This document shows, one piece after another, positions 18,317 through 54,862 of a stretch of 60,270 nucleotides of DNA (the first letter of the stretch is position 1; the number at the start of each line of letters is the position of its first letter). The stretch is from the UHGV virus genome UHGV-0335561. One strand, written 5' to 3'. The position numbers and the translations under genes were made by a program. The notes beneath the pieces were generated by a model. That model was not told the origin of the DNA and did no database searches. It saw nothing but the letters and a program-made list of their open reading frames with translations. The stretch is from a virus.

Positions 18317-18320
18317 TGTT

Positions 18321-19642: not shown

Positions 19643-19652
19643 AAACCGGGAT

Positions 19653-23927: not shown

Positions 23928-23974
23928 TCACCTTTCTCCGGGCGTAAAAAAACCGCCTCAGCGGTTCTCATCAT

Positions 23975-24256: not shown

Positions 24257-24279
24257 CAGAAAGCGAATTTCCGGGCGGG

Positions 24280-24654: not shown

Positions 24655-24668
24655 GATGACCCATCCCC

Positions 24669-25385: not shown

Positions 25386-25451
25386 TCTGCCTCCTGATAA
25401 TAAAAAACCCGCACGCGGCGGGGTATGGGTTTTGTAGAAAAAAAGAAAAAG

Positions 25452-26239: not shown

Positions 26240-26586
26240 TTTTCCCCTCCCAGCCGACAGAGAATTTCCAGACGCCCGCCGGTCGCATCCGGCACGGGCA
26301 GCCCGACAACGTTCAGGATCCGGTCACGCCATGGACCACTCAGCACATGAAGTCGTGACGCTGCCGTGATTTCCCGACCGGACTGACCGCGCACCCAGAT
26401 GCGGATTTCCGCCTGCGCCATTTCCGCACCGGACTGCATCCGCTCCCGGCTGCTCCTGCCTCGGATATCCGCATGAATTTTCCCGCATGACACCCATTCT
26501 TCCGTCATTTCTCCGGCAGCGTTACGGGTTAACACCGGGTTCAGAACACTTATCATCTGTGTCAGACGACCTGCAGATATTGCCAT
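26236..26586 (-). CDS. head-tail adaptor / head closure protein
   Basis: 116 aa; overlapping-stop coupling in the head-tail joining block. Confidence 0.65.
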   Translation of the reverse strand: MAISAGRLTQMISVLNPVLTRNAAGEMTEEWVSCGKIHADIRGRSSRERMQSGAEMAQAEIRIWVRGQSGREITAASRLHVLSGPWRDRILNVVGLPVPDATGGRLEILCRLGGEK

Positions 26587-26595
26587 TCCCCCTCC

Positions 26596-26922
26596 TCATA
26601 ACACCGTCGGACAACGCAAATCGTAAATCAGCACGGAAACAGAAAACGGCAGCTCCCCCTGAAGCAGTTCTTCCCGCTCCGCAAGATCCGGATTCCGGTA
26701 CAGCATCCCGGTCAGTCGCATGGCAGCCCCCTTCATCCGGGTTAATGCCTCGCCCGGGATCAGTTCACCGTCCTCACGGATCACTTTATCCCGGCTGCCC
26801 TGAATGTAGGCCAGCAGCACGGCGGTAGCCTGACGAACCTTGTCCATCAGCATGTCATCATCCGCGTCATGGTCGACACGCAGATGTGCCTTGATCTCTT
26901 CCAGTGTCAGTAATGCCGTCAT
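26596..26922 (-). CDS. gp6-like head-tail connector protein
   Basis: 108 aa MTALLTLEEIKAHLRVDHDADDDMLMDK...; start overlaps portal stop. Confidence 0.7.
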   Translation of the reverse strand: MTALLTLEEIKAHLRVDHDADDDMLMDKVRQATAVLLAYIQGSRDKVIREDGELIPGEALTRMKGAAMRLTGMLYRNPDLAEREELLQGELPFSVSVLIYDLRCPTVL

Positions 26923-29180: not shown

Positions 29181-29391
29181 TCGCCATGCTCCGCATCACG
29201 TTTCTTTTTCTGACCTGCCGGACGTCGCACCGTGATGTACTCCGCCTTTCCCAGGCGAACCAGCACCTCCGCACACGGCTGTGCCACATCACGGATATCC
29301 CCGGCCCGGGCATCATGCGTGCCCTGCAGATATCGGATCTTTGCCATAACCTGTTACGGGAGGCGCACGCCTCCCGTCCTCCTTATCAGAC

Positions 29392-31329
29392 TCAGCCGCC
29401 GGACGCACTGCCGTAGTTCACTCCGGTGATCACCGCCACCGCCGCAGTACGGCGACGACGCCAGTTGATCCAGCGCTCCGCACGGATGGCCACGCTGCCT
29501 GTCTGGAACATGGAAACCAGCTCCACCGGGGACGGCGTGGTACTGTCGCCGGTCGGCTCAGACTGCATTTCCAGTGATGCCTCGCGGGACATATCCACTG
29601 CCACGCCGCCGTCATCCGCCAGATAAATATCCGGGGCATTCACCAGCACCAGCTGGTCACCCACGTACTGGGAGACAATCACCGGCAGCCCCTGGAAGGA
29701 GCCACCCAGCAGGGTCATGTCCGGGTATTCCTTCTGACCCAGCGCATTTTTACGCATGGACAGTGCCAGGGCATTGGTGCTGGACATCAGCCAGACCGCA
29801 CCGGTGGGCTGCAGGTTTGCTGCCACAAACTGTCCAAACGCAGCCTCTGCATCCGCATCCGGGTTACCGGTTGATGCCGTGCCCTTCACATCATGGGTGA
29901 TGGACGCCGGGGAGACATCTGCCACTGCGGCTTTTTTCGGGTCCACAAAGTCTGTATCCAGACGCGCCACCACCGCTTCCGCCAGCGCATTACGGACCAG
30001 TGCATCAGCAGCCGGACTGGAAAAACGGATCAATTCTTCCGTCAGTACCGCAATGGCCGACACCTTCGCATGACTGAAGGTGATGGATTCAAAATCAAAC
30101 TTCGTCAGGGGTTTTGCCTTACCCTCACCCACCCAGCCGGCAGCACCGCCGGACACCTGGGCGTGCACACGGATATTGAATGGCACCTGACGAAGTGCAG
30201 GGATCCCGCCCTGACCAAATCGCCCGATAATGGTCTGCGGACGCAGGTAATCAATAAAGTCCTGTGCGTATTCCTGATATTCAGACAGGCTGCCTGCCCA
30301 CTGCGGATCCGTGGTGGTCCCCGCGCCCACTGCCGATTTCAGGACATGATGCAGACGACTGTCATCCGGATACTGACGACGGGCCACTTCCAGGGCTTCA
30401 GATCGGACGCCTTTAGCCGCAGCCAGCGATTTGGCAAAGCGGGCGAAGCCAATCCCCTTATCCAGTTTCTGCTCCACACGGATCACCGGCGCAGAAGCCA
30501 CCGCGGCCACATTCCCGTTACCGGCCTGTTTCACCGGCTGCGCCGTGGCGGCCTTACCGGCTTCCAGTTCACGCAGGCGCTTCAGGTGCGCATCCACCTG
30601 ACGGATTTCCGCTGCGGTGTTGTCGTAATGCTCTTCCTCCTCCACATCCAGCGTGCGCCCTTCCTCTGCGGCTTTGGTCATGACCTCCTCAAGGGAGGCT
30701 GCCAGCGCTGCACGCTTGTTTTCAAAACTTTTAATCTGTTCGCCAATATTCATTATGGTCTTTTCCTTATGAAAAACGGTTGTTGACTGTGCCGCAGCGC
30801 CGGCAGAAGATGCGATTTTCACCACCGGTTTCCGGTTGCCGGACGCGGCAGAAAACGGGCGGTCGTAAGATTTAATGGTCCGGATGGTGCATTCCGCATT
30901 CGCGGGCACGGTGACGGCAGACACCTCCATCAGTTCCCAGCGCAGAAAATGCAGTCCGCCTCCGTCCAGAAAGGTGTATTCATGGGGACGGAAGCCCACG
31001 GACAGCCCCCTGACCAGCCCGGTCTTAATGGCCGCCCAGACCTCATCCAGCCGGGCAGCCAGTTGCGACGGCATATCCGGTACGGGCTTCACCAGTGTTG
31101 CCGTGATTTCCAGCCCTTCGCTGACCCGGCGCACCGTACACTGCCCCACCGGGCGGGAATGGTCATGCTGCCAGAGAAACGGGATCGCACTGCCAAACTC
31201 CGCGCCCTCCGGCTCCAGGATGTCACCATCCCGATCCGGAGAAGGCGTTGACGCAATCCCGGTGATCACCCGTTCATCCTCACTGAAGGATTTCACCGTC
31301 AGCAGGGAACAGGCCCGTTTAAGAGTCAC
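29392..31329 (-). CDS. prohead protease - major capsid protein fusion (HK97 family)
   Basis: 645 aa; N-terminal GIASTPSPDRDGDIL protease motif, coiled-coil delta region, then capsid domain. Confidence 0.85.
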   Translation of the reverse strand: MTLKRACSLLTVKSFSEDERVITGIASTPSPDRDGDILEPEGAEFGSAIPFLWQHDHSRPVGQCTVRRVSEGLEITATLVKPVPDMPSQLAARLDEVWAAIKTGLVRGLSVGFRPHEYTFLDGGGLHFLRWELMEVSAVTVPANAECTIRTIKSYDRPFSAASGNRKPVVKIASSAGAAAQSTTVFHKEKTIMNIGEQIKSFENKRAALAASLEEVMTKAAEEGRTLDVEEEEHYDNTAAEIRQVDAHLKRLRELEAGKAATAQPVKQAGNGNVAAVASAPVIRVEQKLDKGIGFARFAKSLAAAKGVRSEALEVARRQYPDDSRLHHVLKSAVGAGTTTDPQWAGSLSEYQEYAQDFIDYLRPQTIIGRFGQGGIPALRQVPFNIRVHAQVSGGAAGWVGEGKAKPLTKFDFESITFSHAKVSAIAVLTEELIRFSSPAADALVRNALAEAVVARLDTDFVDPKKAAVADVSPASITHDVKGTASTGNPDADAEAAFGQFVAANLQPTGAVWLMSSTNALALSMRKNALGQKEYPDMTLLGGSFQGLPVIVSQYVGDQLVLVNAPDIYLADDGGVAVDMSREASLEMQSEPTGDSTTPSPVELVSMFQTGSVAIRAERWINWRRRRTAAVAVITGVNYGSASGG

Positions 31330-31392
31330 ATCAGCCTCCTGAAAATAAAAAAACCGCCGGAGCGGTTCGTGATGGTTACAGTGTGAACAGGG

Positions 31393-33054
31393 TTATATGA
31401 AAAAAACCGCATATTCTTTCTTTTTCGGTTCCGGGTTAAGGGACATCAGGGAGACCGCATTGAACAGCGCCATCAGCGGGTCAATTTTTCCCCGTCCACT
31501 GGCCTGTTTGGTGATAAGAATGGCGTTACCTTTAGGCTCCACCCGGGCATTGCCGACACACCAGGCCATCAGGGGCTGGTCACCATGCACCAGCACCCCT
31601 TCAGCCAGTTTGCGCTCGGTGGTTTTAATGGCCCCGCCCAGTTTCCAGCCCTGGCTTATCCCCACCACAATTCCGTCGGGGATCCCGGCTTCCGCCAGTG
31701 AATCCAGAATCTGCCCCACCCCTGACGGGTCAATACCGATATGGTCCAGTAACTCAGCCTCATGAATGCGACGCACATATTCCGCCACTTCCGCCGTGTC
31801 ATCCCCGACACGCCGGACAATGGTCATATCTCCACAGGCAACAAGATCCTGAAACCGGGACGCCTCGCTCTTCCGTCGGACCACCGCGGTTTCATGCGCC
31901 CAGGCATGGCCCCAGCCCAGCCATTCGCGGGTCTCCCGGTCACGCCCAATCACATACATCCCCAGCAGATCATCCAGCCCTCCGCCGTCAATCCCCACCG
32001 TCACCACATCAGCACGACGCAGGATATCGTCCAGGCTGATACAACGGCCCTGCTCTTCCCAGAAATCAGCCCCCGCCCAGCGGTCAGAGCGCAGGGCAAG
32101 ACCAATTTCCACATTGGCGTGTTTTGACATGAACCCCCGGAATGTCTCTTCACCGGCTTCCCGGGCTTTACGGTACTCCCGGTACAGAAAGGCCTCATCC
32201 ACTGAATAGCCGAGATTCGGATTGACCATGGCGAGGTTTTCCATCAGCAGGTTAGTCCCGCTTTCCACCATTTCAGGAGGGTGTTCAAATATCACCGGCA
32301 GAAAGTGCGGATCATGAATTTTGCCGTCGCGCACATCCCGGGCGTACTGCAGTTTCTGTCTGAACACCCCGGCGGGCGGTTCATTCGACTGGGTGGTCGT
32401 ATACACCACAAACCCTTCCGGGCGGGAGGCAAGGCCGCCTATGGCTTCACGTAACATGTCCTCCGCCTTGCACTGCTTGCCAAACAGCCACAACTCATCA
32501 ATCAGCGTACCCACGGACTTGATACCGGACACCGTATTCGGATCGGCTGCCACCACCTTCAGGGTGGTGTCCGTCACTCGGTGGGTGATGGTCCGGATAT
32601 GGGTCTGTACCTGGCAGAGGTCATCCAGATCATCGTCACGTCGTACCATATCCCGGGCAGGGTTGAAGGCGTTGGCCGCCACCTCCACAGTCGGGGCCAG
32701 AATCGTGTAACCCGCCGCCTGCCGCCAGTTCAGTAACAGTGCAGTCATCATGATCCCCGCGGCCAGCGTGGACTTCGAGTTTTTCTTGGGGATAAGGATA
32801 AAAACTTCCTTGATATGGCGTACACCGGTCTGCGCATCGTAGGAGCCAAACAGGGCCGCCACCAGGTCAAACACCCACGGTGCACAGGACTCCCCGAACG
32901 TAGGGCTACCAGGTGCATCCACAATCCGCAGTTGTTTAAAAATCGCCAGGGCATGTGCGGCCTCGTCCGGATAAATCGGATCCGGAATAATCGACAGCCC
33001 CTTTTTCAGGCGCTCTGCCCAGTCCGGGCAGGCTGTGCTCCATACAGGTATCAT
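31393..33054 (-). CDS. terminase large subunit
   Basis: 553 aa; Walker A-like PKKNSKST; follows TerS with 4-bp overlap. Confidence 0.9.
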   Translation of the reverse strand: MIPVWSTACPDWAERLKKGLSIIPDPIYPDEAAHALAIFKQLRIVDAPGSPTFGESCAPWVFDLVAALFGSYDAQTGVRHIKEVFILIPKKNSKSTLAAGIMMTALLLNWRQAAGYTILAPTVEVAANAFNPARDMVRRDDDLDDLCQVQTHIRTITHRVTDTTLKVVAADPNTVSGIKSVGTLIDELWLFGKQCKAEDMLREAIGGLASRPEGFVVYTTTQSNEPPAGVFRQKLQYARDVRDGKIHDPHFLPVIFEHPPEMVESGTNLLMENLAMVNPNLGYSVDEAFLYREYRKAREAGEETFRGFMSKHANVEIGLALRSDRWAGADFWEEQGRCISLDDILRRADVVTVGIDGGGLDDLLGMYVIGRDRETREWLGWGHAWAHETAVVRRKSEASRFQDLVACGDMTIVRRVGDDTAEVAEYVRRIHEAELLDHIGIDPSGVGQILDSLAEAGIPDGIVVGISQGWKLGGAIKTTERKLAEGVLVHGDQPLMAWCVGNARVEPKGNAILITKQASGRGKIDPLMALFNAVSLMSLNPEPKKKEYAVFFI

Positions 33055-33614
33055 CCGTTGCCCTCATTATCGTTATTCACCACCAGTCGGGGGGGCGGTG
33101 GCACCGCAAAACGGTTAGCCGCTTTTTTCGCGGCATCACCTTTTGCCGATTTTTTCCCGGTATCCCCTTTTTTATGGTGCGTGAACTGCGCCAGACGCCA
33201 GGCCGCATCCAGTGCCAGTTTCGGATCAATGCAGAGGTTTTCCACCAGGATCCGCCCCATGGCTTTCACCGGATCGGGAAGACCATCCTCCATATATTCA
33301 ATACCAGGAGACATCACCGCGGACGGTGGCATCTCCAGATTGTTTTCGTCCGGCTGTGGTATTGCAGCCGCCTCACGGCGACGGGGTTTATCCTCCTGCT
33401 CTGATTTTTTCTGCCGGTAAACAGGAACCTCATCCACCTCCACCGTCTCGCATTGTTTACGGGCTATAAACGCAAGCACCTCAGGATCTTTTGCCAGCTG
33501 CGAGCCTTTAACCCTGGCGGTCTTCGCCGAATAACCGGCGGCAATGGCTGACGCTGTTTTGTTTTTCCCGGACATGAGCGCCAGCGCAAATTTTCGTTTT
33601 TGCGTTGTCAGCAC
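33051..33614 (-). CDS. terminase small subunit
   Basis: 187 aa with N-terminal HTH-like region (ASAIAAGYSAKTARVKGSQL). Confidence 0.8.
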   Translation of the reverse strand: MLTTQKRKFALALMSGKNKTASAIAAGYSAKTARVKGSQLAKDPEVLAFIARKQCETVEVDEVPVYRQKKSEQEDKPRRREAAAIPQPDENNLEMPPSAVMSPGIEYMEDGLPDPVKAMGRILVENLCIDPKLALDAAWRLAQFTHHKKGDTGKKSAKGDAAKKAANRFAVPPPPRLVVNNDNEGNG

Positions 33615-37651: not shown

Positions 37652-39532
37652 TTATGATGATGCCGGTGCATTTATCTCCAGCACCAGACTTTCTATCTCA
37701 ACGCCATACGTTGCATTTTTGGTAATATCCGTCAGCGTCAGCGCATTCAGCCCCAGTGTCAGACTGTCTTTTATGACCTGGAATGCCGGGCCAGCCACTC
37801 CATTCAGTTTCGGAGTAACCGTGGCACTGCCGGCGGTGAACACCAGCTCCAGCGTCTGCCAGTCGTTACTGTAATTCCCGAACTCGCCCAACTTTGTGTT
37901 TCCTGCTTTCTTGTGATGCATCAGATTCAGTTTGCCGTCTGTGGTCTGGGTGAAGAACGACATCAGGAACGGGTTACCAGTCCCGGTCATCGCCACGACG
38001 TCAGGTAACGCTACATCGGTATACAGATAAATTCCCAGACCGAACTGATTGTTGGTCAGTGCGCCTGACAGTCGAAACTTACAGCTCAGTCTGCCACCCC
38101 GTGTCAGCAGGGAGACTGCGTCATCCACCGGGCGCGTCAGGGACCAGGCTTTATTGCTCTGCTTGGTGATCTTAAATACACCATCTGACAACTGAATTCC
38201 GCCATTCTTAATGCTCCAGCCCTGCGCAGCAGCATCTCCGGCTGTCGGCAACAGGGAGATTGTGCGTACGGATGCATCTTCAGACGGCCCCGATGGCGTG
38301 TCGCCGCCGGGCGAGGGTTTGATTTCCGGTGCCTTACCACTGATGAAGGCTAAGGTGCGACCGGCTACGTTCAGAATAGCAGTTGCCATACGATCGGGAA
38401 TAATGCCACGACGCGCCCATGAGCTGAAATGCGTCTGGCGATTTGATGATACCCAGTTTTTGTTCGTTCGGGATGCCGAACCGTAATATCCCTCACTTGC
38501 AGCATCCGGATCTTCCGTTGGTGCGTTGGTGGAGGTATTGTTGCCACTACCATCGGTCAGGAACGGCACAAAGAAAACGTTGTCGCTCTCCCTGTTTTTG
38601 TACGCCCCGTAAATGGTGTCGTACTGCGTGCCGTAGGTGTTTTTCCAGTAATACGTCGTGTCACCACAAATCCATGGCACACTTGCCGCTCTGCCTCCAT
38701 GACACTGCGTGTTAAACTCGGTAATGTCCGCACGAAACTGTTTCAGCATGGCCGTAAACAGCGGAGGTTGCTGTGAGTACGTAGCGGCGCTCATGTCAAA
38801 TTCGCCCTGCATCCAGCATACGGCCAGCAGCATGTTTTTTGGGTTTTTCTGCAATGCGGCCTTCGTGCGCAAAATCAGGTCCTGATATAAAGGTTTACCC
38901 ACACCCCAGCGAGCCGAATCCTGACTGGCTCCTGTGGACTCGCTGAATGTCCCCTCCGCGCCCTGGGTGAATGCCGAACCACCACGACAGCATGGAACCA
39001 GTAAAATCCCGGCATTCTGTGGAATGTAAGGCAACAGGCGTTTGGCAATATGCAAGCCCTGTCCGACACAGCCATACTGCCCTTTGCTCAGGTCTGCATT
39101 CGGGTGATTCAGTGCGCTCATATCCTGAACATCATGCAGGCAGTGGTCTGCCGGAATGATGTCGTTAAATGCGCATGCTTTACCACCGGGAGTCACTGTG
39201 TTGCGACGGGCCAGTTGCTTAATGCGTGGGTGGGGCGCATCGTAAGAATCCGGCAGCGGCATTCCCTCACCATATGACATGGCATTGGATTGACCAGCAA
39301 GTACCACCACGTAATACCACTCCGGCACGCTGCCGTGCTGGGGGGAATCAGGTGAGATGTCTGTAGTGCCATCGGCCACCATTGCCTGCATTAGATACCA
39401 CGGGGTGCCGGGTTCGTAGGCAACCCGCGTCTCCCCCTGAAGATGCCACCCTTTCGCAAGATGTTCATTCACCTTTTGAGTCAGTTCAGCCTGTGTCATG
39501 GCTGTAATCAGTGCAAAGTTCTTACTGGTCAT
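37652..39532 (-). CDS. nanS: prophage 9-O-acetyl-N-acetylneuraminate esterase NanS-p (DUF1737 N-domain plus SGNH/SASA esterase)
   Basis: 626 aa; N-terminal MTSKNFALITAMTQAELTQKVNEHLAKGW, GQSN esterase motif (VVLAGQSNAMSYGEG). Confidence 0.8.
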   Translation of the reverse strand: MTSKNFALITAMTQAELTQKVNEHLAKGWHLQGETRVAYEPGTPWYLMQAMVADGTTDISPDSPQHGSVPEWYYVVVLAGQSNAMSYGEGMPLPDSYDAPHPRIKQLARRNTVTPGGKACAFNDIIPADHCLHDVQDMSALNHPNADLSKGQYGCVGQGLHIAKRLLPYIPQNAGILLVPCCRGGSAFTQGAEGTFSESTGASQDSARWGVGKPLYQDLILRTKAALQKNPKNMLLAVCWMQGEFDMSAATYSQQPPLFTAMLKQFRADITEFNTQCHGGRAASVPWICGDTTYYWKNTYGTQYDTIYGAYKNRESDNVFFVPFLTDGSGNNTSTNAPTEDPDAASEGYYGSASRTNKNWVSSNRQTHFSSWARRGIIPDRMATAILNVAGRTLAFISGKAPEIKPSPGGDTPSGPSEDASVRTISLLPTAGDAAAQGWSIKNGGIQLSDGVFKITKQSNKAWSLTRPVDDAVSLLTRGGRLSCKFRLSGALTNNQFGLGIYLYTDVALPDVVAMTGTGNPFLMSFFTQTTDGKLNLMHHKKAGNTKLGEFGNYSNDWQTLELVFTAGSATVTPKLNGVAGPAFQVIKDSLTLGLNALTLTDITKNATYGVEIESLVLEINAPASS

Positions 39533-47284: not shown

Positions 47285-47300
47285 TGGGGCTGTCCTTTTT
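47268..47300. terminator. bidirectional terminator between convergent Q and the 174-aa gene
   Basis: acagccccgtgatggggctgt hairpin with T run after and A run before. Confidence 0.65.
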
Positions 47301-47823
47301 ACCAGAGTTGAACCATTTTCTGGGTGCCGTCAGGCTTGAGATTATCAATTTCAGAGAGAACGTAATATTGAATGGCTTCACAAACGGTGGTGTAGGGTGA
47401 ATTACCTTCTTTAAGTGGCACGATATTATTATTAACGCGAACCTGTATTTCATCGTTATACATTGCGATCGAAACAGGAGTGTGCACGAACGCGACTTCG
47501 CCAGGTGTGTCGTCAACCACCGTTTCAATACTAAAAGTCAGTTTTCGCTCATCATTGCTGCCCCGTGCTTTGGGGGTAGCGGCAGGGATCTGGGATAAAG
47601 GCATTCTGCGAAATCCTTCGGCTGCTTCCAGTCCGCATGAAACGTAATGCTGGCGATTACCGTCGCTATCTGTCCAGGTCTGTGATGGCAGCTCCAGCGA
47701 GATTTCATAAGCATCAACAATGCCCTGGGCAAGGCGTACAAGCGGGGTCAGATCTTCATTGCGGCGAAAGCTCTCCTTTACCTGCTCCCGTTTTTCTCTT
47801 AACTGCTTGTAATTAATGACCAT
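47299..47823 (-). CDS. hypothetical 174-aa protein at the cos-proximal edge of the cargo locus
   Basis: GGAGG RBS 7 nt upstream of ATG (MVINYKQLREKREQVKESF...); own terminator; no TM; no family recognised. Confidence 0.6.
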   Translation of the reverse strand: MVINYKQLREKREQVKESFRRNEDLTPLVRLAQGIVDAYEISLELPSQTWTDSDGNRQHYVSCGLEAAEGFRRMPLSQIPAATPKARGSNDERKLTFSIETVVDDTPGEVAFVHTPVSIAMYNDEIQVRVNNNIVPLKEGNSPYTTVCEAIQYYVLSEIDNLKPDGTQKMVQLW

Positions 47824-48368
47824 AAGACAGCCTCCATTGATTTCTTTGCTCGTATTTTGCACTTATGAAGTATGGTCGGCAAGGTGCCGTATCGCTGACG
47901 CGCTTCGCTTGTCTGCTGCTTCGCCGGGGCATAAAAAATTTATGCCCCGGCTCTCCAGCTCCTGTATCAATCAGATAATTTCACGACGCCTTCCAGTTTA
48001 TCGCCACCATCGACGGTCAGACTCTTACGCAATTCCACCGCGTTGACTGCATGTTCTCGCTGCCTCAGTGCGATTTTGACGGCCTTACCTTTCACCCCAT
48101 CAAATCAAAAGCCCTCACGCCTTTTTCATGCTCAGCGTGAGAAATATGGCCATTCTGTTGTGTCTCTGCGACATCGTTCAGGGAATGCTATTTACCCCCT
48201 GAAACGCGGGCTGTTCCCCCGTCACCTGCGCGCAGAAAAAGCGCGTTTTTTTGTGCACGCACGGATCCTTGACGGATCCAGCCGCCATGCGGGCCGGAAG
48301 GGTAAAAAGTCGTTCAAAAAAATTGTGCAAATTTGTGCACTTTTGTGCAGGTAAGCATGCCTATATAT

Positions 48369-48397
48369 TTGACCGTGGCTTGCCTTTGATGTAGTTT
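48369..48397 (+). promoter_or_regulatory. putative sigma70 promoter (TTGACC, 17 bp, TAGTTT) preceded by three TTGTGCA repeats at 10-bp spacing
   Basis: aattgtgcaaatttgtgcacttttgtgcag upstream of the -35/-10 pair. Confidence 0.35.
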
Positions 48398-48449
48398 ATA
48401 CGTCACAAAAACCACAAAACGTGGTTATGATTTCTATGAGGGGGTTGAT

Positions 48450-48485
48450 ATGAAAAAAATGTATGATGAATTTGATGGTTTCTAA
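48450..48485 (+). other. leader mini-ORF (11 codons, MKKMYDEFDGF) with strong RBS, just upstream of a terminator
   Basis: GAGGGGG RBS 5 nt upstream of ATG; stop about 20 nt before the hairpin. Confidence 0.35.
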
Positions 48486-48503
48486 GCTACGTTGACCTCT
48501 AAT

Positions 48504-48546: not shown

Positions 48547-49044
48547 ATGAACCCAATAACACTACAAATCATCAGCAATGCTATTGTTCTGCTTGGCGTT
48601 TTGGTTGCCATTGGAACCATTATCTACAATGTGCGTACCGCAAAAAAAACTCAAACGGCCAACTTTCTTTTTGAGAGTCGGCAAGATATGCAATATATAG
48701 AGTCATTGCATACCCTGAAACAAGTGCATCGTTCAGGCAAATCATTTCGTTCTTATGTTTTTCCTTGTGATGGTTGCATAATAACAGATGAAGAAATGGC
48801 CGAGCGTCGAAAATTTCAATATATTTTAAATTTTTACGAGCGAGTTGCTGTAAGTATTCGTGAAGGTATTTATGATGAAAAAATGATAAAAAGAACATCT
48901 TACACAACAGTTGTAGAGACATATGATATTGCCGAGCCATTAATTAAAGCAATCAGAGAAAGCATTAATTCGGATACTACATATCAAGAATTCGAATGGT
49001 TAGTAAGAAGATGGAAAGCTAATCCTTTACGGAAAAACAAATAA
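48547..49044 (+). CDS. hypothetical membrane-anchored protein (single N-terminal TM plus about 135-aa soluble domain), AT-rich
   Basis: 165 aa MNPITLQIISNAIVLLGVLVAIGTIIYNV...; visibly lower GC than flanks. Confidence 0.7.
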   Translation: MNPITLQIISNAIVLLGVLVAIGTIIYNVRTAKKTQTANFLFESRQDMQYIESLHTLKQVHRSGKSFRSYVFPCDGCIITDEEMAERRKFQYILNFYERVAVSIREGIYDEKMIKRTSYTTVVETYDIAEPLIKAIRESINSDTTYQEFEWLVRRWKANPLRKNK

Positions 49045-49083
49045 TGTTTTACCCTTTAATTTACAAGTAACACAGGGGGAAGT

Positions 49084-49926
49084 GTGACACAGAATCCGTT
49101 TTCATTTTATGACTTTTTGGGCTATCTAATTCCAGGTGGGTTATTCCTGTTTATCCTTTTTTTGTTTTCTATTGAAATTAACCCTGTTTATATAGAAGGT
49201 ATTCTTAACCATATCCTGAAATATAAAGAAATAATAAGTGTATTTATATATGTGGTATTAATCGTTCTATCATATATTTCAGGTCACTTCATATCTATTC
49301 TATCATCCTGTTTAATTGAAAAATACATGAACAGTAAACTTGGGTATCCTTCAATTTATCTGTTTTCTAAAAGAAGCTCCCTGAAAATAAAACGACATAA
49401 TACTAAGTTCAGTATAGTTAATTTTATTCGTGGAGTTTTTTTATTTCCTGTATCAGCTTTTGATAAAGCAGAACATCATAAAACCACACTGCATTCTATA
49501 CTTATTAAAGTCTTTTGGCCGCAAATACGAGATGGTTATATAAATGTTTTTTCTGTATCTACGCTATATCGACGTAAGGGCTTGAGGGGCGATCTTTTTC
49601 GCCTTGCTTATCATTATGTGTATGAACATTCTAAAAATCATCAGGTGAAAATGCAAAACTATGTTGCTTTGTATGGTTTTTGTAGAAACATTACATTTGT
49701 TTTTCTCGCTTCAGTCTGGTTGCTTATGTTCCTGCTCCTTCTATCCTTTTTAATAGATATAAATATCAGACTGTTACCTTTTTGTTTTCTTCTCTTGTTT
49801 TGTATTGCTGCATCCCGAGTATTTTATTATGGTTTTGTTAAGTATTATCGCCGCTATTCTCTTGAGGTTTTAATGGCATTTGCGGTACTTCAGCACGATA
49901 AAAAAACTTCGGCAATTTCATCATGA
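49084..49926 (+). CDS. hypothetical polytopic membrane protein (4-5 predicted TM helices), AT-rich
   Basis: 280 aa; hydrophobic segments at about 10-30, 50-72, 196-222, 224-250; purine-rich RBS region. Confidence 0.7.
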   Translation: MTQNPFSFYDFLGYLIPGGLFLFILFLFSIEINPVYIEGILNHILKYKEIISVFIYVVLIVLSYISGHFISILSSCLIEKYMNSKLGYPSIYLFSKRSSLKIKRHNTKFSIVNFIRGVFLFPVSAFDKAEHHKTTLHSILIKVFWPQIRDGYINVFSVSTLYRRKGLRGDLFRLAYHYVYEHSKNHQVKMQNYVALYGFCRNITFVFLASVWLLMFLLLLSFLIDINIRLLPFCFLLLFCIAASRVFYYGFVKYYRRYSLEVLMAFAVLQHDKKTSAISS

Positions 49927-49942
49927 TTTGAAACATTGGCAC

Positions 49943-49970
49943 CCTGTTAGCAAGGGTGCCAGAATGATGT
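49943..49970. terminator. hairpin between the convergent membrane cassette and parR
   Basis: ggcaccct-gttagca-agggtgcc. Confidence 0.55.
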
Positions 49971-50009
49971 GTTGGTCTGTATTTTATTAGTTCACATACA
50001 ATTATCAGA

Positions 50010-50324
50010 TTATTCTGGGAATAAGGTCTGAATATTCTTTTTTATTTTATAAAAATTGCATTCAACTCCGCTAGGCTGATTATCCTGGTATGTTTCCTTG
50101 ATGCTAACGGTATTGAAGGGGAGGTTGTCCTCTGGCCATTCGGCCATCCAGTAGGCAAATGCTGGGTTGCGCTTTATGAGCGCTAGCCCAGCCAGAAAGG
50201 CCGCGCGTTGCGCGCGGCTGCGTTCGGAGGCTGGCAGGCTATCGAGGTAATTGCACGCCTCCTGTTCACTCTTGACGGCGGCGGGCTTCAGATAGAAACT
50301 TATCCGTCTGGTTGGTGTCGTCAT
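50010..50324 (-). CDS. parR: ParR-like centromere-binding protein (type II partition, ribbon-helix-helix)
   Basis: 104 aa; RRISFYLKPAAVKSEQEACNYLDSLPASERSRAQRAAFLAGLALIKRNP resembles plasmid R1 ParR as I recall it; AAGGAG RBS. Confidence 0.75.
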   Translation of the reverse strand: MTTPTRRISFYLKPAAVKSEQEACNYLDSLPASERSRAQRAAFLAGLALIKRNPAFAYWMAEWPEDNLPFNTVSIKETYQDNQPSGVECNFYKIKKNIQTLFPE

Positions 50325-50328
50325 TGGT

Positions 50329-51288
50329 TTACTCCTTGTCCATTGCGTACAGCCCATTAACCAGAGCAAACTGTGGCACCCCGTCCGCGATGAAAGTCGC
50401 ATTAACTCCGCAGACTTCGCGGATAGCGGGTGCCACAATCTCCGCCCCTCCACCGACAACCATCACCCGCCCGTAACCCGAAAAAACCGCCAGCGCGCGG
50501 ATCACGCGTTGTTTCAGTGTTTCTTCCTTTTCACGAATAACCGCCATCAGGCTGGCGTAATGCGCGTCATTGTGGATGTGCTGGCGCAGCCAGGCTTCAT
50601 CATGGCGATGTTCGATAATGGTATTGGCGATGTGGTGACTGGTGCGCATACCGTTAGTGGCCATCACCGACAGTACGGCATCGGCCATCAGGGAAACGCC
50701 TACGTGTGGATCGCAAAACACCTGGCTGATACCTGCCAGTTGCCCTTGAACCTTTGCCACATCCAGCGTGGTTCCGCCTAAATCCACAATCAGCAGGGAT
50801 TCAAACGGACTCATGTCAGCCAGTGCTTTAAAGCCAGCCGGAATGGATTCAGGCATAACCCGCACGTTACGGATAGTGAATGCTTCGCCGTTCTGGTATT
50901 CCACCGGGCGCATAACGTTCGCTTTTTTGCGGTTGATGTTGGCCATGTCCGGCTGTGCGTTTGTGTCGAAATACTCGCTCAGTGGCAGGGTGACAACCAC
51001 ATCCACCTCCTGTGGCGTGATGCCTGATTTGACCAGCGCGTGATGAATGGCGATTACATTCACATCGCTGTACTGGTATTGCGTGTCGGTCGTCTGGACA
51101 AAGCGATCGCTAACCGGATCAAAACCATAGCGCACGCCATCAAGCATGTAGTTCGCGGGCTGCATGCCACCGAACGGCGCAGACCATTCCGACTTGAAGC
51201 TGTTCGGGCTGATGGCGTTGCGGCGTTCGCCATTCTCAGTCCATGCCAGCTTGATGTTGGTGGAGCCGTCGTCGATACAAATTTTCAT
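50329..51288 (-). CDS. parM: ParM/StbA-family actin-like segregation ATPase
   Basis: 319 aa; MKICIDDGSTNIKLAW...ISPNSFK.EW...YSDVNVIAIHHAL... motifs of R1 ParM. Confidence 0.85.
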   Translation of the reverse strand: MKICIDDGSTNIKLAWTENGERRNAISPNSFKSEWSAPFGGMQPANYMLDGVRYGFDPVSDRFVQTTDTQYQYSDVNVIAIHHALVKSGITPQEVDVVVTLPLSEYFDTNAQPDMANINRKKANVMRPVEYQNGEAFTIRNVRVMPESIPAGFKALADMSPFESLLIVDLGGTTLDVAKVQGQLAGISQVFCDPHVGVSLMADAVLSVMATNGMRTSHHIANTIIEHRHDEAWLRQHIHNDAHYASLMAVIREKEETLKQRVIRALAVFSGYGRVMVVGGGAEIVAPAIREVCGVNATFIADGVPQFALVNGLYAMDKE

Positions 51289-51304
51289 GTCGCTTTTCCT
51301 TATG

Positions 51305-51440
51305 TTGATTAATTAATCGTTTACGGGATTCTGAAATCCCGTTTTTGCCTGTTTTGTGCGCGCTTCATATATCGCTGCGCGTTTTTTGCTCATTTACGGG
51401 ATTCGTAAGTCCCGTTTCTGTCTGTTTTTTGTTTCCACTG
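51305..51440. repeat. two direct repeats of about 45 bp, each with an internal palindrome (ACGGGATT...AATCCCGT), upstream of parM; putative parC-like centromere/operator
   Basis: cgtttacgggattctgaaatcccgtttttgcctgtttt and tcatttacgggattcgtaagtcccgtttctgtctgtttt; the second copy overlaps the last codons of A. Confidence 0.55.
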
Positions 51441-54187
51441 GTCAGGCCACCCCGCAGCAGGTCTGCTTTGCGGCTGGCGCGTTCAGTGGTTTCACTGATT
51501 CTCTGTGCGTGCTCTGCGTCGCGGATGGCGCGCAGCATGTCAGAAAGCACGGTAACGGGTGTTTTCATGGTGTTCTGGCCCTGCTGAAGTGTGGATGCCA
51601 GGCGTGCGGCGGCTTCAGGGTCTGATGCCCCCAGCTGTGCCAGATAGCTGGCGACCGGGTTATGGCGGATCTCCGTGCTGCTTACGCCATGATTACGGCT
51701 CAGGCGCTGCCAGAGCTGCGTGATTCGGCTGTCCGGGCGGGTATCCGGTTTGCGTACAATTTCAAATCCCTGCGGTGCAATGATGCTGCCGTCAACGTAC
51801 AGACTGCCGCCCCGTAACAGGTGCTGCATCTGTTGTTCACCGATATGCAGGCCGAGAGATTCAGCAGACTCCCGCCATTCTTTAGCGAGTAATTCGTGGT
51901 TATCAGGCAAAGGCCGCTGCTGTTTGCGGCTCTGTGTCCAGCTCTGCATTTCATCGCTGCTGTTTTTTGCCTGTTTGTCACGAAGCGAACGCATCAGCGC
52001 CCGGCGTTCGTGTCGTTTCAGTGAGCGCATCCATTCGTTCACTTCAACGCCGTCAGGGAGCTGCGGCCACGGTGCTGGCCGTTCTTCCGGCTGTTCTGTC
52101 CCGTTGTTGTCCGTTTCCTGTACACGGGGACAGTTATTGCCACGAGTCCAAGGGGCGGCAGGGCCGCCCTGAAGGTCAAAACCATTTTCGCGGGCGCTGT
52201 CTTCCGCTTCCGGTTTACGTCTTACCAGCTTCCAGTTATCCGGATGCGTGCACACACGGGAGGATTCCCCGATGAGTGGTGACCAGATCCCGTAAATCTG
52301 TACGCTCTGTTCGCCGTAATCGTTCAGCTCATCTGCGAGGTCGTAGGCGGTGCGAATCAGGTAGTCCTTGCGTGGAACAAGCACGCCACCCTGTTTTTCA
52401 ATGTAGGTGGCAAAACACCCGGCATCGGCGGCAGCGAGTACCGCATCCATTGCATCATCTTTCAGCCGTTGCGGGCCTTCCGGATTGCGTGCCATCTGGC
52501 TGGCAAGGCGGCGCAGTTCACGCCACACCTGACGGGAGGGGATGCCAAAGAACTGGAACTGACGGACCCGGTGAAGGCGCGCCCAGCCGATGGCGCGCTC
52601 CACGCTCTCGGCCATTGATTTTCCGGTTTCGTGGTCCACGCGTGGCTTGCCCGTTTTCGGGTCGATGCCATCCACGGCGCGGCTGTCCAGGTTCTTTCCG
52701 ATGTAGGTGGCGATGTAGCTGGTTGGCGTGCCTTTTGAGCCGTCGACATACTCCACCTTAAAGCGCGGAGTAATATCATTGCCCAGCTCGTGGCGGTCTT
52801 CCTGAATGGCAATATCGCGGGTATGGGACACAATGGTGTCGATTTCTTCCGGATGTGCAAAGACCATCATATGCCAGTGCACGGTGCCGTCATGATGAGG
52901 CTCCACCGTGCGGATGCCATACCAGCGCAGGCCGTCGCGGTTCAGTTTTTTGCGGACCGCCGCAAAAAACGTGTTAACCAGGTAATCGCTGGAGTCGCGC
53001 ATTGTGGCCCCGTTCCATTTGGGATTCGGATGACCGTTCTCCGTTGTGGCGTGGTATTTTGACGGGCAGGTGACAGTCAGAAACACCGCTTTGTCGCCAC
53101 GGGCTTCGGCCAGAAGTTCCAGTCCCTTCATGGTGGCCATCATTTCTGCCTTACGGTGAACCGGGTTACTTACTCCCGCGTAATACACTGTCTCGAGATC
53201 AATCGTGAACCCGTCTTCATTTTCCAGCATGAAACTTTTCAGGAAATCGCGTGTTTTCTCGCGCTGTGCGCGAAACTCGCTTAACGCGTCCTGGCTCAGA
53301 TAGGGTGATGTTTTTCTGGAAACCAGACAGGCGGCGCGGAGTTGTTCTTCTCTCCACTCGCAACGTAACAGCCACAGTTTGCGTTTCCACCATTCCGCAC
53401 AGGTCAGGCGAAGGATTGCGCCCGGCAGCAGCTCCGTGTCCGGTTCGTTCCTCCGGTCTTTGTCTGTTGTCAGTGCGTCATAATGTGGAGGCATGGCGTG
53501 CAGGTGTAACGCCATGCGGGCCAGCATCTGATACGCCTTCAGGGTTACATCCATGGTCAGCTCGCCATCGGTCGCGCCAAAGCCATCGCAGAGTTTTTCG
53601 AAGGTGCTGCTGAACATCGCCGCCGTCATGGTGGCCAGCGTCTGTATCTGGTGTTTGTTGAGCTGCGGCAGGTAAAGCAAATCGTCCAGGCGTTCGCGTC
53701 CGGCAAGGGAGCGATAACCCGGTGTCAGCCAGCGTCCGTCAGTGCTATCCAGACGTTCGAATATTTTGCGCAGGGTTCCGCGTGCATAGCGTTCCGCCTG
53801 CCAGCTCTTTTTGCCTTTCCGGCGATCGGCTTCCTGTTTTTTGCGCAGGAAGGAGAGGTGGCGAATAAGCGGATCGCGCAGATAGGACGGCAGCAGGCGC
53901 AGCGAGGCCATGGCTTCATCCACCGCGCCACGTGCCTGTTTTCTGGCGTCTCCTGCCAGTGTGATGGTTTTGTCCTGTTTTTCCTGTGCGTCCAGGCTTT
54001 TATTAATCAGGTTGCCCAGCGGCGTGGCTGAGAACGCCGCATCAGCCATTTCCTGGCGGCGCTCGTTCTCTGCCCGGTAGGCATCCAGCCAGGAGGAAAG
54101 CGCGGATTCAGGAGCGGGGATCCCCGTTCCTTCACGCCCCACTGCGTGGCGCGGTTGTTGCCAGTCCCTGAGGTACTCTGCCGTCAT
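51365..54187 (-). CDS. A: replication initiation endonuclease (P2 gpA-family rolling-circle initiator)
   Basis: 940 aa; P2/186 A-like domains; position in the early operon. Confidence 0.85.
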   Translation of the reverse strand: MTAEYLRDWQQPRHAVGREGTGIPAPESALSSWLDAYRAENERRQEMADAAFSATPLGNLINKSLDAQEKQDKTITLAGDARKQARGAVDEAMASLRLLPSYLRDPLIRHLSFLRKKQEADRRKGKKSWQAERYARGTLRKIFERLDSTDGRWLTPGYRSLAGRERLDDLLYLPQLNKHQIQTLATMTAAMFSSTFEKLCDGFGATDGELTMDVTLKAYQMLARMALHLHAMPPHYDALTTDKDRRNEPDTELLPGAILRLTCAEWWKRKLWLLRCEWREEQLRAACLVSRKTSPYLSQDALSEFRAQREKTRDFLKSFMLENEDGFTIDLETVYYAGVSNPVHRKAEMMATMKGLELLAEARGDKAVFLTVTCPSKYHATTENGHPNPKWNGATMRDSSDYLVNTFFAAVRKKLNRDGLRWYGIRTVEPHHDGTVHWHMMVFAHPEEIDTIVSHTRDIAIQEDRHELGNDITPRFKVEYVDGSKGTPTSYIATYIGKNLDSRAVDGIDPKTGKPRVDHETGKSMAESVERAIGWARLHRVRQFQFFGIPSRQVWRELRRLASQMARNPEGPQRLKDDAMDAVLAAADAGCFATYIEKQGGVLVPRKDYLIRTAYDLADELNDYGEQSVQIYGIWSPLIGESSRVCTHPDNWKLVRRKPEAEDSARENGFDLQGGPAAPWTRGNNCPRVQETDNNGTEQPEERPAPWPQLPDGVEVNEWMRSLKRHERRALMRSLRDKQAKNSSDEMQSWTQSRKQQRPLPDNHELLAKEWRESAESLGLHIGEQQMQHLLRGGSLYVDGSIIAPQGFEIVRKPDTRPDSRITQLWQRLSRNHGVSSTEIRHNPVASYLAQLGASDPEAAARLASTLQQGQNTMKTPVTVLSDMLRAIRDAEHAQRISETTERASRKADLLRGGLTSGNKKQTETGLTNPVNEQKTRSDI

Positions 54188-54631: not shown

Positions 54632-54862
54632 TTAATGGAGTTTGTTTTGCTGCTGGATGAGCTGTTGAAGCTCGTGCAGATCATCCGCCAGATAGCTGAA
54701 AACAGAGGCGGAATAAATGTTTGATAGTGCGTGGCTGCGCTCATGCAGCATATTGATGTGCATGATTTGCGCGACGCGTGATGCGCGGGAAAGTCTGCGG
54801 TTGATTTCAGTCTGGATGTGACGACGCTCCGCGATAGCGCGGTGCTGTTTGCGGTTTGCCAT
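54632..54862 (-). CDS. hypothetical early-operon protein (76 aa)
   Basis: Same-strand small ORF with basic N-terminus. Confidence 0.45.
   Translation of the reverse strand: MANRKQHRAIAERRHIQTEINRRLSRASRVAQIMHINMLHERSHALSNIYSASVFSYLADDLHELQQLIQQQNKLH

What the first reader, a model, noticed from the sequence alone, without database searches (positions are those of the whole stretch)
50010..51440. Complete plasmid-type ParM/ParR partition cassette with centromere-like repeats inside an integrated P2-like prophage
The 319-aa protein carries ParM/StbA motifs and the 104-aa protein resembles R1 ParR; two roughly 45-bp palindrome-containing direct repeats lie just upstream of parM. Type II partition loci are plasmid hallmarks and are unexpected next to the replication gene of an integrase-carrying P2-like prophage. 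It could reflect a phage-plasmid ancestry or episomal maintenance, or the actin-like ATPase could be co-opted for another role. The second repeat overlaps the last codons of A, hinting at coupling to replication or its origin.
Basis: partly seen in the sequence, partly recalled or inferred. Interest (0 to 1): 0.65.

Follow-up and report, generated by a model that had tools for sequence, protein, structure and literature searches.

The report
Plasmid-type partition genes in P2-like prophage
A genuine actin-type (ParM/ParR) DNA-segregation cassette sits just after the replication gene of a P88-type, P2-like prophage. It is a standard, already annotated and already published feature of this phage lineage, found in about a quarter of complete E. 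coli genomes, and its role has never been tested; most likely it moves the phage's circular DNA while that DNA is outside the chromosome.

Summary
On the minus strand, gpA (51365-54187) is followed by parM (50329-51288) and parR (50010-324). ParM is 319 aa, matches R1 ParM at E=1e-92, and has all its ATPase motifs. ParR is 104 aa and matches Pfam Plasmid_stab_B at E=8e-29. Two 42-nt direct repeats lie 73 bp apart, each with a 20-bp palindrome ACGGGATT-N4-AATCCCGT, and the distal one lies inside the last 22 codons of A.

The cassette is not unexpected. It is in all 14 P88-type phage records and in 1303 of 5426 complete E. coli genomes, nearly always on the chromosome. RefSeq and PHROGs annotate it. 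Rousset et al. 2022 state that about a fourth of P2-like phages carry a putative partition system.

It is not a recent plasmid capture: plasmid ParMs are at most 52% identical, GC matches the phage backbone, and parM pN/pS is 0.07. ParMs 54-62% identical occupy the same position after gpA in Plesiomonas, Hafnia, Serratia and Enterobacter prophages.

My best reading (0.5) is that ParR on the palindromes couples the transient circular phage DNA to ParM filaments, as in SXT/R391 srpMRC and CGP3 AlpAC. Stable plasmid lysogeny looks rare. The function is untested and interest is low to moderate.

The parts
50329..51288 (-). parM: 319-aa actin-like ATPase of the R1 ParM/StbA family
   Evidence: Pfam StbA_N 2.7e-82 and ParM C-terminal domain 1.1e-68. 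R1 ParM structures at E=1.1e-92 over residues 2-316. PHROG 691 'partition protein' at 6e-90. ATPase motifs invariant. Intact at 319 aa in 82 of 82 related loci. pN/pS 0.067.
50010..50324 (-). parR: 104-aa adaptor with three parts. These are an N-terminal ribbon-helix-helix-type DNA-binding part (beta-strand RRISFYLKP), a variable linker, and a conserved C-terminal NIxxLFPE tail (the putative ParM-binding peptide).
   Evidence: Pfam Plasmid_stab_B 7.7e-29. PHROG 2515 at 1e-54. Weak match to pB171 ParR 2jd3. Alignments with prophage, ICE, IncI-plasmid and D6 ParRs. Intact in 77 of 79 related loci, with two allele classes and a hypervariable linker.
51317..51358 (.). Proximal 42-nt repeat in the 76-bp A-parM spacer. 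It contains the perfect palindrome ACGGGATT-CTGA-AATCCCGT (51323-51342), centred about 45 bp upstream of the parM ATG. Candidate ParR binding site (parC half 1).
   Evidence: The two-site pattern is present, 73 bp apart, in 70 of the 81 related loci scanned. The related motif CAGGCAAAAACGGGA is shared with the Serratia prophage locus.
51390..51431 (.). Distal 42-nt repeat inside the last 22 codons of gpA. It contains the imperfect palindrome ACGGGATT-CGTA-AGTCCCGT (51396-51415). Candidate ParR binding site (parC half 2).
   Evidence: The spacing of 73 bp is about 7 helical turns. A Plesiomonas relative also has two repeats 72 bp apart, the first overlapping the 3' end of its gpA.
51365..54187 (-). 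gpA: P2-family rolling-circle replication endonuclease (940 aa), directly upstream of parM and co-directional with it. No terminator lies between the two genes on this strand.
   Evidence: Pfam Phage_GPA 4.9e-131. 30% identity to P2 A over about 750 aa. No minus-strand terminator or sigma-70 promoter detected between A and parM.
52131..52165 (-). Predicted origin nick region inside gpA (GCCGCCCCTTGGACTCGTGGCAATAACTG), aligned to the annotated P2 nick site.
   Evidence: The P2 record annotates the nick at 29892, within GCCGCGCCTCGGAGTCCTGTCAATAACTG. The same peptide and DNA block is present in the window. This is inferred by homology only.
51295..51316 (-). AT-rich box ATTAATTAATCAA followed by the ribosome-binding site AAGGAAAA, just upstream of parM. 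A TATTAATCAA-like box recurs in the Plesiomonas and Hafnia relatives. It may be a weak -10 element of a parMR promoter.
   Evidence: by direct reading. The consensus promoter scan found nothing here, so the assignment is tentative.

Best explanation
This is a working type II (ParMRC-type) DNA-segregation module that belongs to the replication region of P88-type P2-like temperate phages.

ParR dimers would bind the two 20-bp palindromes at the A/parM junction through the conserved N-terminal beta-strand. The conserved C-terminal tail of ParR would capture the ends of ATP-dependent ParM filaments. Filament growth would then push apart or position copies of the circular phage genome.

The substrate is the extrachromosomal circle. 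It exists only transiently, after infection and before Int-mediated integration, and after Cox/Int excision while gpA drives rolling-circle replication from the ori 0.7 kb away. parMR follows A without a terminator, so it is probably made with the early replication operon, possibly also from a weak promoter of its own.

The pay-off would be that circles are spread through the cell and to both daughters. That would give fewer abortive lysogens and cured cells and/or more efficient replication. It would not be a stable plasmid lifestyle.

Shown: the identity and intactness of ParM and ParR, the repeats, the conserved position after gpA, purifying selection, and the almost exclusively chromosomal residence. 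Inferred: ParR binding to the palindromes, co-transcription with A, the substrate and the benefit.
For: - ParM is a full-length R1-type ParM with all ATPase motifs.
- ParR has the family's N-terminal DNA-binding segment and the C-terminal N(A/I)xxLF tail that plasmid and D6 ParRs also carry.
- Purifying selection is strong and intactness near-universal: pN/pS 0.067, parM intact in 82 of 82 loci, parR in 77 of 79.
- Linkage to P88-type gpA is tight: 14 of 14 phages, and 1279 against 1321 E. coli genomes.
- GC equals the phage backbone, while the adjacent cargo is 29-37% GC.
- ParMs 54-62% identical keep the same position after gpA in Plesiomonas, Hafnia, Serratia and Enterobacter P2-like prophages.
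- The two-site architecture with 72-73 bp spacing and a GGGA...CCC dyad recurs in E. coli and Plesiomonas. A dyad of the same GGGA...CCC type (two copies by eye, spacing not measured) is in Hafnia. A shared CAGGCAAAAACGGGA box is in Serratia.
- The ParR beta-strand and first 18 codons are invariant across ParR alleles, matching the invariant palindromes.
- No terminator lies between A and parM on the coding strand.
- There is precedent in integrated elements. SXT/R391 srpMRC reduces loss of the excised ICE (PMC4489591). CGP3 AlpAC is induced early and is needed for efficient replication of the excised phage circle (PMC4446434).
Against: - Nothing here shows ParR binding, filament formation or any phenotype.
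- The candidate centromere is unusually small: two separated palindromes and no tandem iteron array. R1 parC has ten iterons (from prior knowledge), and the IncI and D6 loci have three or more dispersed repeats.
- No convincing promoter was found, so the timing of expression is a guess.
- In the Hafnia and Enterobacter relatives, other ORFs separate A from parM, so physical coupling to A is not universal.
- On the plus strand, both repeats look like intrinsic terminators.
- A lytic cell holding many circles would gain little from pairwise segregation.
Confidence: 0.5

Rival explanations
1. Phage-plasmid lifestyle. The cassette lets P88-type phages persist stably as low-copy plasmids, as an alternative to integration. 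This is the suggestion in Rousset et al. 2022.
For: The suggestion is published (PMC9122126). One complete 34,461-bp circular 'plasmid' record, NZ_CP148288.1, is an entire P88-like genome including int. Phage D6, a P1-like phage-plasmid, carries a ParM/ParR pair of the same family (48% identity).
Against: In complete E. coli genomes the cassette is at 1441 chromosomal places against 2 on plasmids. Only 6-7 of 72,556 plasmid records match. Most of those are records of 228 kb to 1.4 Mb carrying an integrated copy. All examined members keep int, cox and C. A sits in the early operon as in P2. By the known P2 scheme that operon is repressed in lysogens, so no replication would support a plasmid state (inference from P2 biology). 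The single circular record could be excised replicating DNA assembled separately.
Confidence: 0.15
2. Hotspot cargo with a non-partition role. ParMR would be a moron in the A-Q variable region. It might serve the host or phage competition, for example by incompatibility against related phages or plasmids, by defence, or by acting on the chromosome through the integrated site.
For: It lies in the A-to-Q interval that Rousset et al. define as the P2 defence and diversity hotspot. A recombination breakpoint sits inside parR at codon 18, and ParR alleles are swapped together with the downstream cargo. ParM phylogeny is not congruent with gpA.
Against: There are no PADLOC hits. Unlike true cargo, it is retained in about 97% of genomes with P88-type A and has backbone GC. 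It is always on the A-proximal side. No plasmid carries the palindromes or a close ParR that could be a target. The complete motor, adaptor and repeat set is what partition needs.
Confidence: 0.12
3. The repeats are not a centromere. They would be RNA or terminator elements, or operators only. Examples are tandem plus-strand intrinsic terminators that insulate gpA and ori from antisense transcription, mRNA-stabilising hairpins, or ParR autoregulatory sites. The true ParR loading site, if any, would then lie elsewhere.
For: On the plus strand each repeat is an 8-bp stem with a 4-nt loop followed by a T-rich tail, and both are called terminator-like. Hairpins are predicted on both strands (z-scores -1.9 to -2.6). 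A common CCCG-to-CCTG variant keeps a G-U pair in the sense RNA. Two separated sites are few for a type II centromere.
Against: In P88 itself the downstream cargo is co-directional with parMR, yet the repeats are 99% conserved. The Plesiomonas and Hafnia counterparts keep the GGGA...CCC dyad, and Plesiomonas the 72-bp spacing, but have weak stems, and the Plesiomonas copy has no T-tract. A perfect 8+4+8 palindrome repeated in helical phase is typical of a protein operator. The position upstream of parM is where type II centromeres lie.
Confidence: 0.15
4. Decaying relic of an old plasmid-phage recombination with no current function.
For: The centromere is small and no promoter is recognisable.
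Against: pN/pS is 0.067 over 64 alleles. The ORFs are intact in 82 of 82 and 77 of 79 loci. The position is conserved across genera at 54-62% ParM identity.
Confidence: 0.03

Closest known systems
ParMRC (type II partition) of plasmid R1/NR1 (stbAB)
   Same: ParM is the same length and aligns end to end with R1 ParM (E=1e-92), with identical nucleotide-binding motifs; R1-type plasmid ParMs are about 52% identical. The parM-parR order and translational coupling are the same. ParR is in the same Pfam family, with an N-terminal DNA-binding strand and a C-terminal N-A-x-x-L tail. The cis repeats lie upstream of parM.
   Different: The host replicon is an integrating P2-like phage, not a plasmid. 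The candidate centromere is two separated 20-bp palindromes, one inside a coding region, rather than ten 11-bp iterons flanking a strong promoter (the R1 layout is from prior knowledge). No tandem array and no consensus promoter were found here. ParR is shorter (104 aa).
srpMRC of SXT/R391 integrative conjugative elements (Carraro et al. 2015, PMC4489591)
   Same: It is a type II partition system in an element that normally lives integrated. It acts on the transient, rolling-circle-replicating excised circle, and SrpR binds an upstream centromere-like site. This is the best functional analogue.
   Different: SrpM and SrpR are only distantly related to R1 ParMR, whereas this ParM is a close R1-type homologue. 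The element is an ICE replicating from oriT with a relaxase, not a phage replicating with gpA. Function is shown for srpMRC and not here.
AlpAC/alpS of Corynebacterium glutamicum prophage CGP3 (Donovan et al. 2015, PMC4446434)
   Same: It is an actin-like motor plus a DNA-binding adaptor encoded by an integrated prophage. The adaptor binds repeats in its own upstream region. It is induced early on excision and is needed for efficient replication of the circular phage DNA.
   Different: The host phylum and phage type are different, and AlpC is a divergent actin-like protein. The adaptor-motor gene order and the adaptor family differ. No experimental data exist for the P88 system.
StbA/StbB-type pair of phage-plasmid D6 (P1-like)
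   Same: It is the only other phage in the 50,697-record collection with a ParM of this subfamily (48% identity). It also has a downstream ParR-family gene and upstream repeats.
   Different: D6 is a 91-kb plasmid prophage in which partition is needed for lysogeny. The P88-type phages integrate.
P2-like prophage ParMR loci in Plesiomonas, Hafnia, Serratia and Enterobacter
   Same: The gpA-(0 to 2 ORFs)-parM-parR-cargo-(ogr)-portal layout is the same. ParM is 54-62% identical. The two subclades each have 200/200 bootstrap support. Related GGGA-containing repeats lie upstream.
   Different: The gpA lineages differ (32-57% identity, not congruent with ParM). The ParRs are longer (116-134 aa). Serratia and Enterobacter have one long inverted repeat instead of two direct palindromic repeats.

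Membership tests
Type II (ParMRC) partition system | Actin-fold ATPase ParM with phosphate-1, catalytic Glu, phosphate-2 and adenosine motifs | tested here: met
   Pfam StbA_N plus the ParM C-terminal domain. Full-length alignment to R1 ParM structures at E=1e-92. DDGST, E147, DLGGTT and GGGA are invariant in alignment A3.
Type II (ParMRC) partition system | Small adaptor ParR encoded immediately downstream of parM, with an N-terminal ribbon-helix-helix DNA-binding domain and a C-terminal ParM-binding tail | tested here: met
   Met at sequence level only. Pfam Plasmid_stab_B 7.7e-29. Weak match to the pB171 ParR structure. Conserved RRISFYLKP strand and C-terminal NxxxLF tail shared with plasmid and D6 ParRs.
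Type II (ParMRC) partition system | Centromere parC: an array of repeated ParR-binding sites upstream of parM, overlapping the par promoter | tested here: inconclusive
   Two 42-nt repeats with 20-bp palindromes lie 73 bp apart upstream of parM. They are conserved in the lineage and echoed in other genera. There are only two sites, no tandem iterons and no recognisable promoter. Binding was not tested.
Type II (ParMRC) partition system | Stabilises an unstable replicon in cis; ParM forms dynamic filaments capped by ParR-parC | not testable with these tools
   This needs plasmid-stability assays, EMSA and microscopy.
Phage-plasmid (extrachromosomal prophage) | The prophage is maintained as an autonomous replicon in lysogens | tested here: not met
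   1441 chromosomal places against 2 on plasmids in complete E. coli genomes. Int, Cox and the repressor are retained. There is only one free 34.5-kb circular record. This is an indirect test on assemblies.
P88-type (Xuanwuvirus) P2-like phage | P2-type head, terminase and portal module, gpA replication endonuclease, cox/C/int switch, and near-identity to P88 | tested here: met
   94-98% nucleotide identity to P88 over the shared head, portal, parM and A blocks, falling to 84% in one early-region block. 99.92% identity to the EC958 prophage over 22.6 kb. Phage_GPA at 4.9e-131. The tail half of the prophage is absent from the window.
Known anti-phage defence systems (PADLOC) | Significant match of ParM or ParR to a defence-system profile | tested here: not met
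   No PADLOC family matches ParM, ParR or gpA at E up to 0.1.

The most novel reading that the evidence does not exclude
The cassette might be more than a stop-gap stabiliser. It could be a phage 'spindle' used by a quarter of E. coli's P2-like prophages. One version is that ParM filaments organise and disperse gpA-made monomeric circles during lytic growth, which would be an actin-based counterpart of AlpAC or PhuZ in an enterobacterial myovirus. Another is that, when expressed in lysogens, they act on the integrated two-palindrome site and so pull on the host chromosome itself. The minimal centromere, two phased palindromes with one embedded in the replication gene, would then be a new, compact way of loading ParR.
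Probability: 0.12. Interest if true: 0.65.

Novelty: already known. Interest (0 to 1): 0.3.

Why it matters
The system is carried by roughly one in four sequenced E. coli, including the pandemic ST131 lineage, yet no experiment has addressed why an integrating phage keeps an actin-type DNA motor under strong purifying selection. If it acts on the transient circle, it would extend the finding that integrated elements need partition (SXT/R391 ICEs, CGP3) to a major family of enterobacterial phages. It would also bear on lysogenisation efficiency, prophage loss and phage-satellite dynamics. As a discovery in this window, however, it is a correctly recognised, already annotated feature.

Tried and rejected
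- **Defence role.** The PADLOC scan of ParM, ParR and gpA found nothing.
- **R1-like iteron array.** Tandem Repeats Finder at minimum score 30 found none in 49900-51700.
- **Own promoter.** The consensus scan found no minus-strand sigma-70 site between A and parM. Reading by eye gives only a weak AT-rich box.
- **Recent plasmid origin or plasmid hitchhikers.** The 141-bp repeat region occurs on no plasmid except those carrying the whole phage. Plasmid ParMs are at most 52% identical.
- **Extra ParR sites elsewhere in the prophage.** The full palindrome occurs only at the two sites. The flank motif CARAAACGGGA has exact matches only there. A one-mismatch copy about 40 bp from the predicted ori nick was not pursued.
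- **Single origin of all P2-prophage ParMs.** The two subclades are each robust (200/200), but their union has only 95/200 bootstrap support. One acquisition or two cannot be decided.
- **Co-divergence of ParM with gpA.** Rejected. Serratia and Enterobacter ParMs are 74% identical but their gpAs only 37%.
- **ParR allele against palindrome variant.** No association was visible.
- **Technical dead ends.** The genome-contig scan returned only near-identical relatives. The first bootstrap script timed out.
Full report
**What is there**

On the minus strand the window encodes three co-directional genes: gpA (51365-54187, 940 aa), parM (50329-51288, 319 aa) and parR (50010-50324, 104 aa). A 76-bp spacer separates A from parM. 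The parR ATG lies 4 nt after the parM stop, behind an AAGGAG ribosome-binding site.

gpA is a P2-family replication endonuclease (Pfam Phage_GPA 4.9e-131).

ParM matches both Pfam ParM domains (2.7e-82 and 1.1e-68). It aligns end to end with the crystallised R1 ParM (1mwk, E=1.1e-92). The nucleotide-binding motifs are intact: DDGST, the catalytic Glu, DLGGTT and GGGA.

ParR belongs to Pfam Plasmid_stab_B (7.7e-29). Its match to the pB171 ParR structure is only faint (E=0.012).

Alignment with prophage, ICE, IncI-plasmid and phage-D6 ParRs shows the usual three parts:
- an N-terminal strand (RRISFYLKP) with helices;
- a variable linker;
- a conserved C-terminal N(A/I)xxLF tail.

**The repeats**

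Two 42-nt direct repeats (51317-51358 and 51390-51431) are 83% identical and 73 bp apart, about seven helical turns. Each carries a 20-bp palindrome. The proximal one, ACGGGATT-CTGA-AATCCCGT, is perfect. The distal one has two arm mismatches in this window but is perfect in many relatives.

The palindrome pattern occurs nowhere else in the 60 kb. The distal repeat lies within the last 22 codons of A. No tandem iteron array exists, and no consensus sigma-70 promoter or coding-strand terminator lies between A and parM.

On the opposite strand both repeats look like intrinsic terminators, and hairpins are predicted on both strands.

**Where the window comes from**

Positions 37670-60270 are 99.92% identical to the P88-like prophage that sits next to dmsA in E. 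coli ST131 strain EC958, with int at the window's right end. They are 94-98% identical to the shared head, portal, parM and A blocks of phage P88 (Xuanwuvirus, Peduoviridae), with one early-region block at 84%.

The window itself contains no host DNA. Left of 37670 it continues into lambdoid lysis, terminase, head and tail genes. 'Integrated' therefore rests on the identity to EC958 and many other chromosomes, not on the window.

**How common and how old**

The 1.5-kb region is found in 14 phage records. These are exactly the 14 records that have a P88-type gpA (85% amino-acid identity or more). The next gpA relatives are 43% identical and lack ParM.

In 5426 complete E. coli genomes:
- parM occurs in 1303 genomes, 1279 of them at near full length;
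- it sits at 1441 chromosomal places against 2 on plasmids;
- P88-type gpA is near full length in 1321 genomes, so about 97% retain parM.

Among 82 related loci with a recognisable start, every parM is an intact 319-aa ORF, and 77 of 79 parR genes are intact. Pooled pN/pS for parM is 0.067 over 64 alleles.

GC content of parMR (0.52-0.53) is that of the phage backbone. The adjacent cargo genes are at 0.29-0.37.

Plasmid ParMs are all 52% identical or less, except on a few large replicons that carry the whole prophage. The repeat region is on no plasmid by itself. This is not a recent plasmid capture.

**Relatives in other genera**

ParMs 54-62% identical, from Plesiomonas, Hafnia, Serratia and Enterobacter ludwigii, all lie just downstream of a Phage_GPA gene. 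Zero to two ORFs sit in between. A Plasmid_stab_B gene, variable cargo and then (ogr and) the portal gene follow, inside P2-like prophages. A 49% relative in Dickeya sits in an ICE-like region.

In a neighbour-joining tree these prophage ParMs form two subclades, E. coli/Hafnia/Plesiomonas and Serratia/Enterobacter. Each has 200/200 bootstrap support. Their union is supported only 95/200.

Their gpA proteins are 32-57% identical and not congruent with ParM. The module has therefore moved among gpA lineages while keeping its position.

Upstream regions vary, as centromeres do, but they echo one another:
- Plesiomonas has two 26-nt repeats 72 bp apart, the first overlapping the 3' end of its A gene, with a CGGGA...CCC dyad.
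- Hafnia has GGGA...CCC-type dyads, two by eye.
- Serratia shares the box CAGGCAAAAACGGGA with E. coli.

Within the E. coli lineage, 70 of the 81 loci scanned carry two sites matching the palindrome pattern exactly 73 bp apart, and most variation falls in the 4-nt spacer and at the inner and outer arm positions. The regex used for that scan presupposes the core arms.

**ParR mosaicism**

Against P88 the window is about 99% identical through the A 3' end, the repeats, parM and the first 18 codons of parR. Identity then drops abruptly, and the ParRs are 52% identical overall.

Across 80 loci there are two main ParR classes and a hypervariable linker. The N-terminal strand and the C-terminal tail stay fixed. 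This fits a protein whose DNA-reading and motor-binding ends are constrained. It also shows that the left boundary of the hotspot's recombination lies inside parR.

**Relation to the origin**

The P2 record annotates the nick site at 29892, inside A. The same peptide and DNA block (…GGACTCGTGGCAATAACTG) occurs in the window at about 52131-52165. The predicted nick is therefore about 0.72 kb from the distal repeat. That is close, but the two do not overlap.

**What is already known**

RefSeq names the genes 'plasmid segregation protein ParM' and 'plasmid partitioning/stability family protein'. PHROGs has families for both.

Rousset et al. [quoted passage not shown] The phiSM paper lists it as a fitness cargo gene (PMC6456863). 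I found no experimental study.

**Mechanism**

The parts are those of a working ParMRC system, kept under selection in an element that is almost always integrated. The best-supported reading (confidence about 0.5) has four steps:
1. ParR binds the two palindromes.
2. ParR's tail recruits ParM filaments.
3. The filaments move the extrachromosomal circular genome, which exists between infection and integration and again after excision, while gpA replicates it.
4. parMR is probably read through from the early operon.

The closest functional precedents are srpMRC of SXT/R391 ICEs, which lowers loss of the excised ICE (PMC4489591), and AlpAC of prophage CGP3, which is induced early and needed for efficient replication of the phage circle (PMC4446434).

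Which pay-off dominates, inheritance by both daughters or efficient replication, cannot be decided here.

**Rivals**

- *Stable plasmid lysogeny (0.15).* The 1441:2 chromosomal bias argues against it, as does the P2-type placement of A in the repressible early operon. One 34.5-kb circular record exists.
- *A non-partition cargo role (0.12).* There is no defence-profile match, and retention and composition are core-like.
- *The repeats are terminators, RNA hairpins or mere operators rather than a centromere (0.15).* This is plausible because there are only two sites and the plus-strand terminator shape is clear. It is weakened by their conservation where cargo is co-directional and by relatives that keep the dyad without good stems or T-tracts.
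- *A dead relic (0.03).* Contradicted by pN/pS and ORF intactness.

**Verdict**

The finding is real and correctly identified, but it is ordinary for this phage lineage and already noted in the literature. What remains open is the function and the unusually compact candidate centromere. Novelty: already known. Interest: 0.3.

Noticed in passing
window 48547-49926 (+): Two low-GC (0.29-0.37) cargo genes lie between the cos-proximal region and parR, convergent with parMR. One is a DUF4760 protein (165 aa, Pfam 1.8e-34). The other is a 280-aa hydrophobic, possibly membrane, protein (PHROG 12528, unknown function). PADLOC hits are only weak (Csx27 at 1.1e-5, PDC-S35 at 0.014). They occupy the P2 A-Q hotspot where anti-phage systems sit, so they are a candidate uncharacterised defence pair.
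   Followed up: partly
window 37652-39532 (-) and the junction at about 37670: The P88-like prophage is not complete in the window. Identity to the EC958 prophage stops at 37670, about 15 nt from the 3' end of a NanS-p-like esterase gene (DUF1737-SASA-DUF6645). To the left come lambdoid lysis, terminase, head and tail genes instead of P2 tail genes. This looks like recombination between paralogous esterase genes of two prophages (a chromosomal rearrangement or hybrid prophage), or else an assembly chimera.
   Followed up: partly
window 1-33600: Two lambdoid late-gene blocks lie in opposite orientation. The first runs from 1 to about 16150 (+) and ends with the gpJ tip-attachment protein (13128-16154). 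The second runs from about 18300 to 33600 (-) and carries tail I/L, tape measure, tube, portal, a protease-capsid fusion and TerL. No complete E. coli genome in the collection covers 80% or more of the first 25 kb. The window contains no host genes and no tRNA.
   Followed up: partly
window 50270 (codon 18 of parR), compared with L001 (P88): There is a sharp mosaic breakpoint inside parR. Identity to P88 is about 99% upstream and about 55-60% downstream. Related loci show two ParR allele classes and a hypervariable linker (residues about 65-95) between fixed N- and C-termini.
   Followed up: yes
L006 = NZ_CP148288.1 (34,461-bp circular 'plasmid' of E. coli Z1323PEC0009): The record is an entire P88-like phage genome, with int, cox, A, parMR and the head and tail genes, deposited as a separate circular replicon. 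It could be a true episomal prophage or excised replicating DNA. Whether the same strain also has an integrated copy was not checked.
   Followed up: no
window 54632-54862 (-): A 76-aa ORF upstream of gpA (a 121-aa ORF lies between them) corresponds to the P88 gene annotated 'derepression protein'. The Hafnia homologue hits Pfam PF25738 (Derepression). A derepression-type protein encoded within the phage's own early region is curious.
   Followed up: no
window 52099-52109 (-): A one-mismatch copy of the repeat-flank motif (CAACAACGGGA, against CARAAACGGGA) lies about 40 bp downstream of the predicted ori nick inside gpA. It may be chance: 11 one-mismatch matches in the window against 2.1 expected.
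   Followed up: no
window 49940-49962: A GC-rich hairpin, GGCACCCTGTTAGCAAGGGTGCC, lies between the convergent cargo genes and parR, with no clear T-tract on either strand. It may be a weak bidirectional terminator.
   Followed up: no
window 47299-47862 (-): A 187-aa ORF of unknown function (PHROG 5091, no Pfam hit) lies just past the portal gene. About 680 bp of non-coding sequence follows (47900-48500), probably containing cos.
   Followed up: no
L012 (Dickeya CM001975.1): A ParM/ParR pair 49% identical to the window's sits in an ICE-like chromosomal region with TraG_N, TraU and an integrase. This is another integrated element carrying a type II partition cassette.
   Followed up: no
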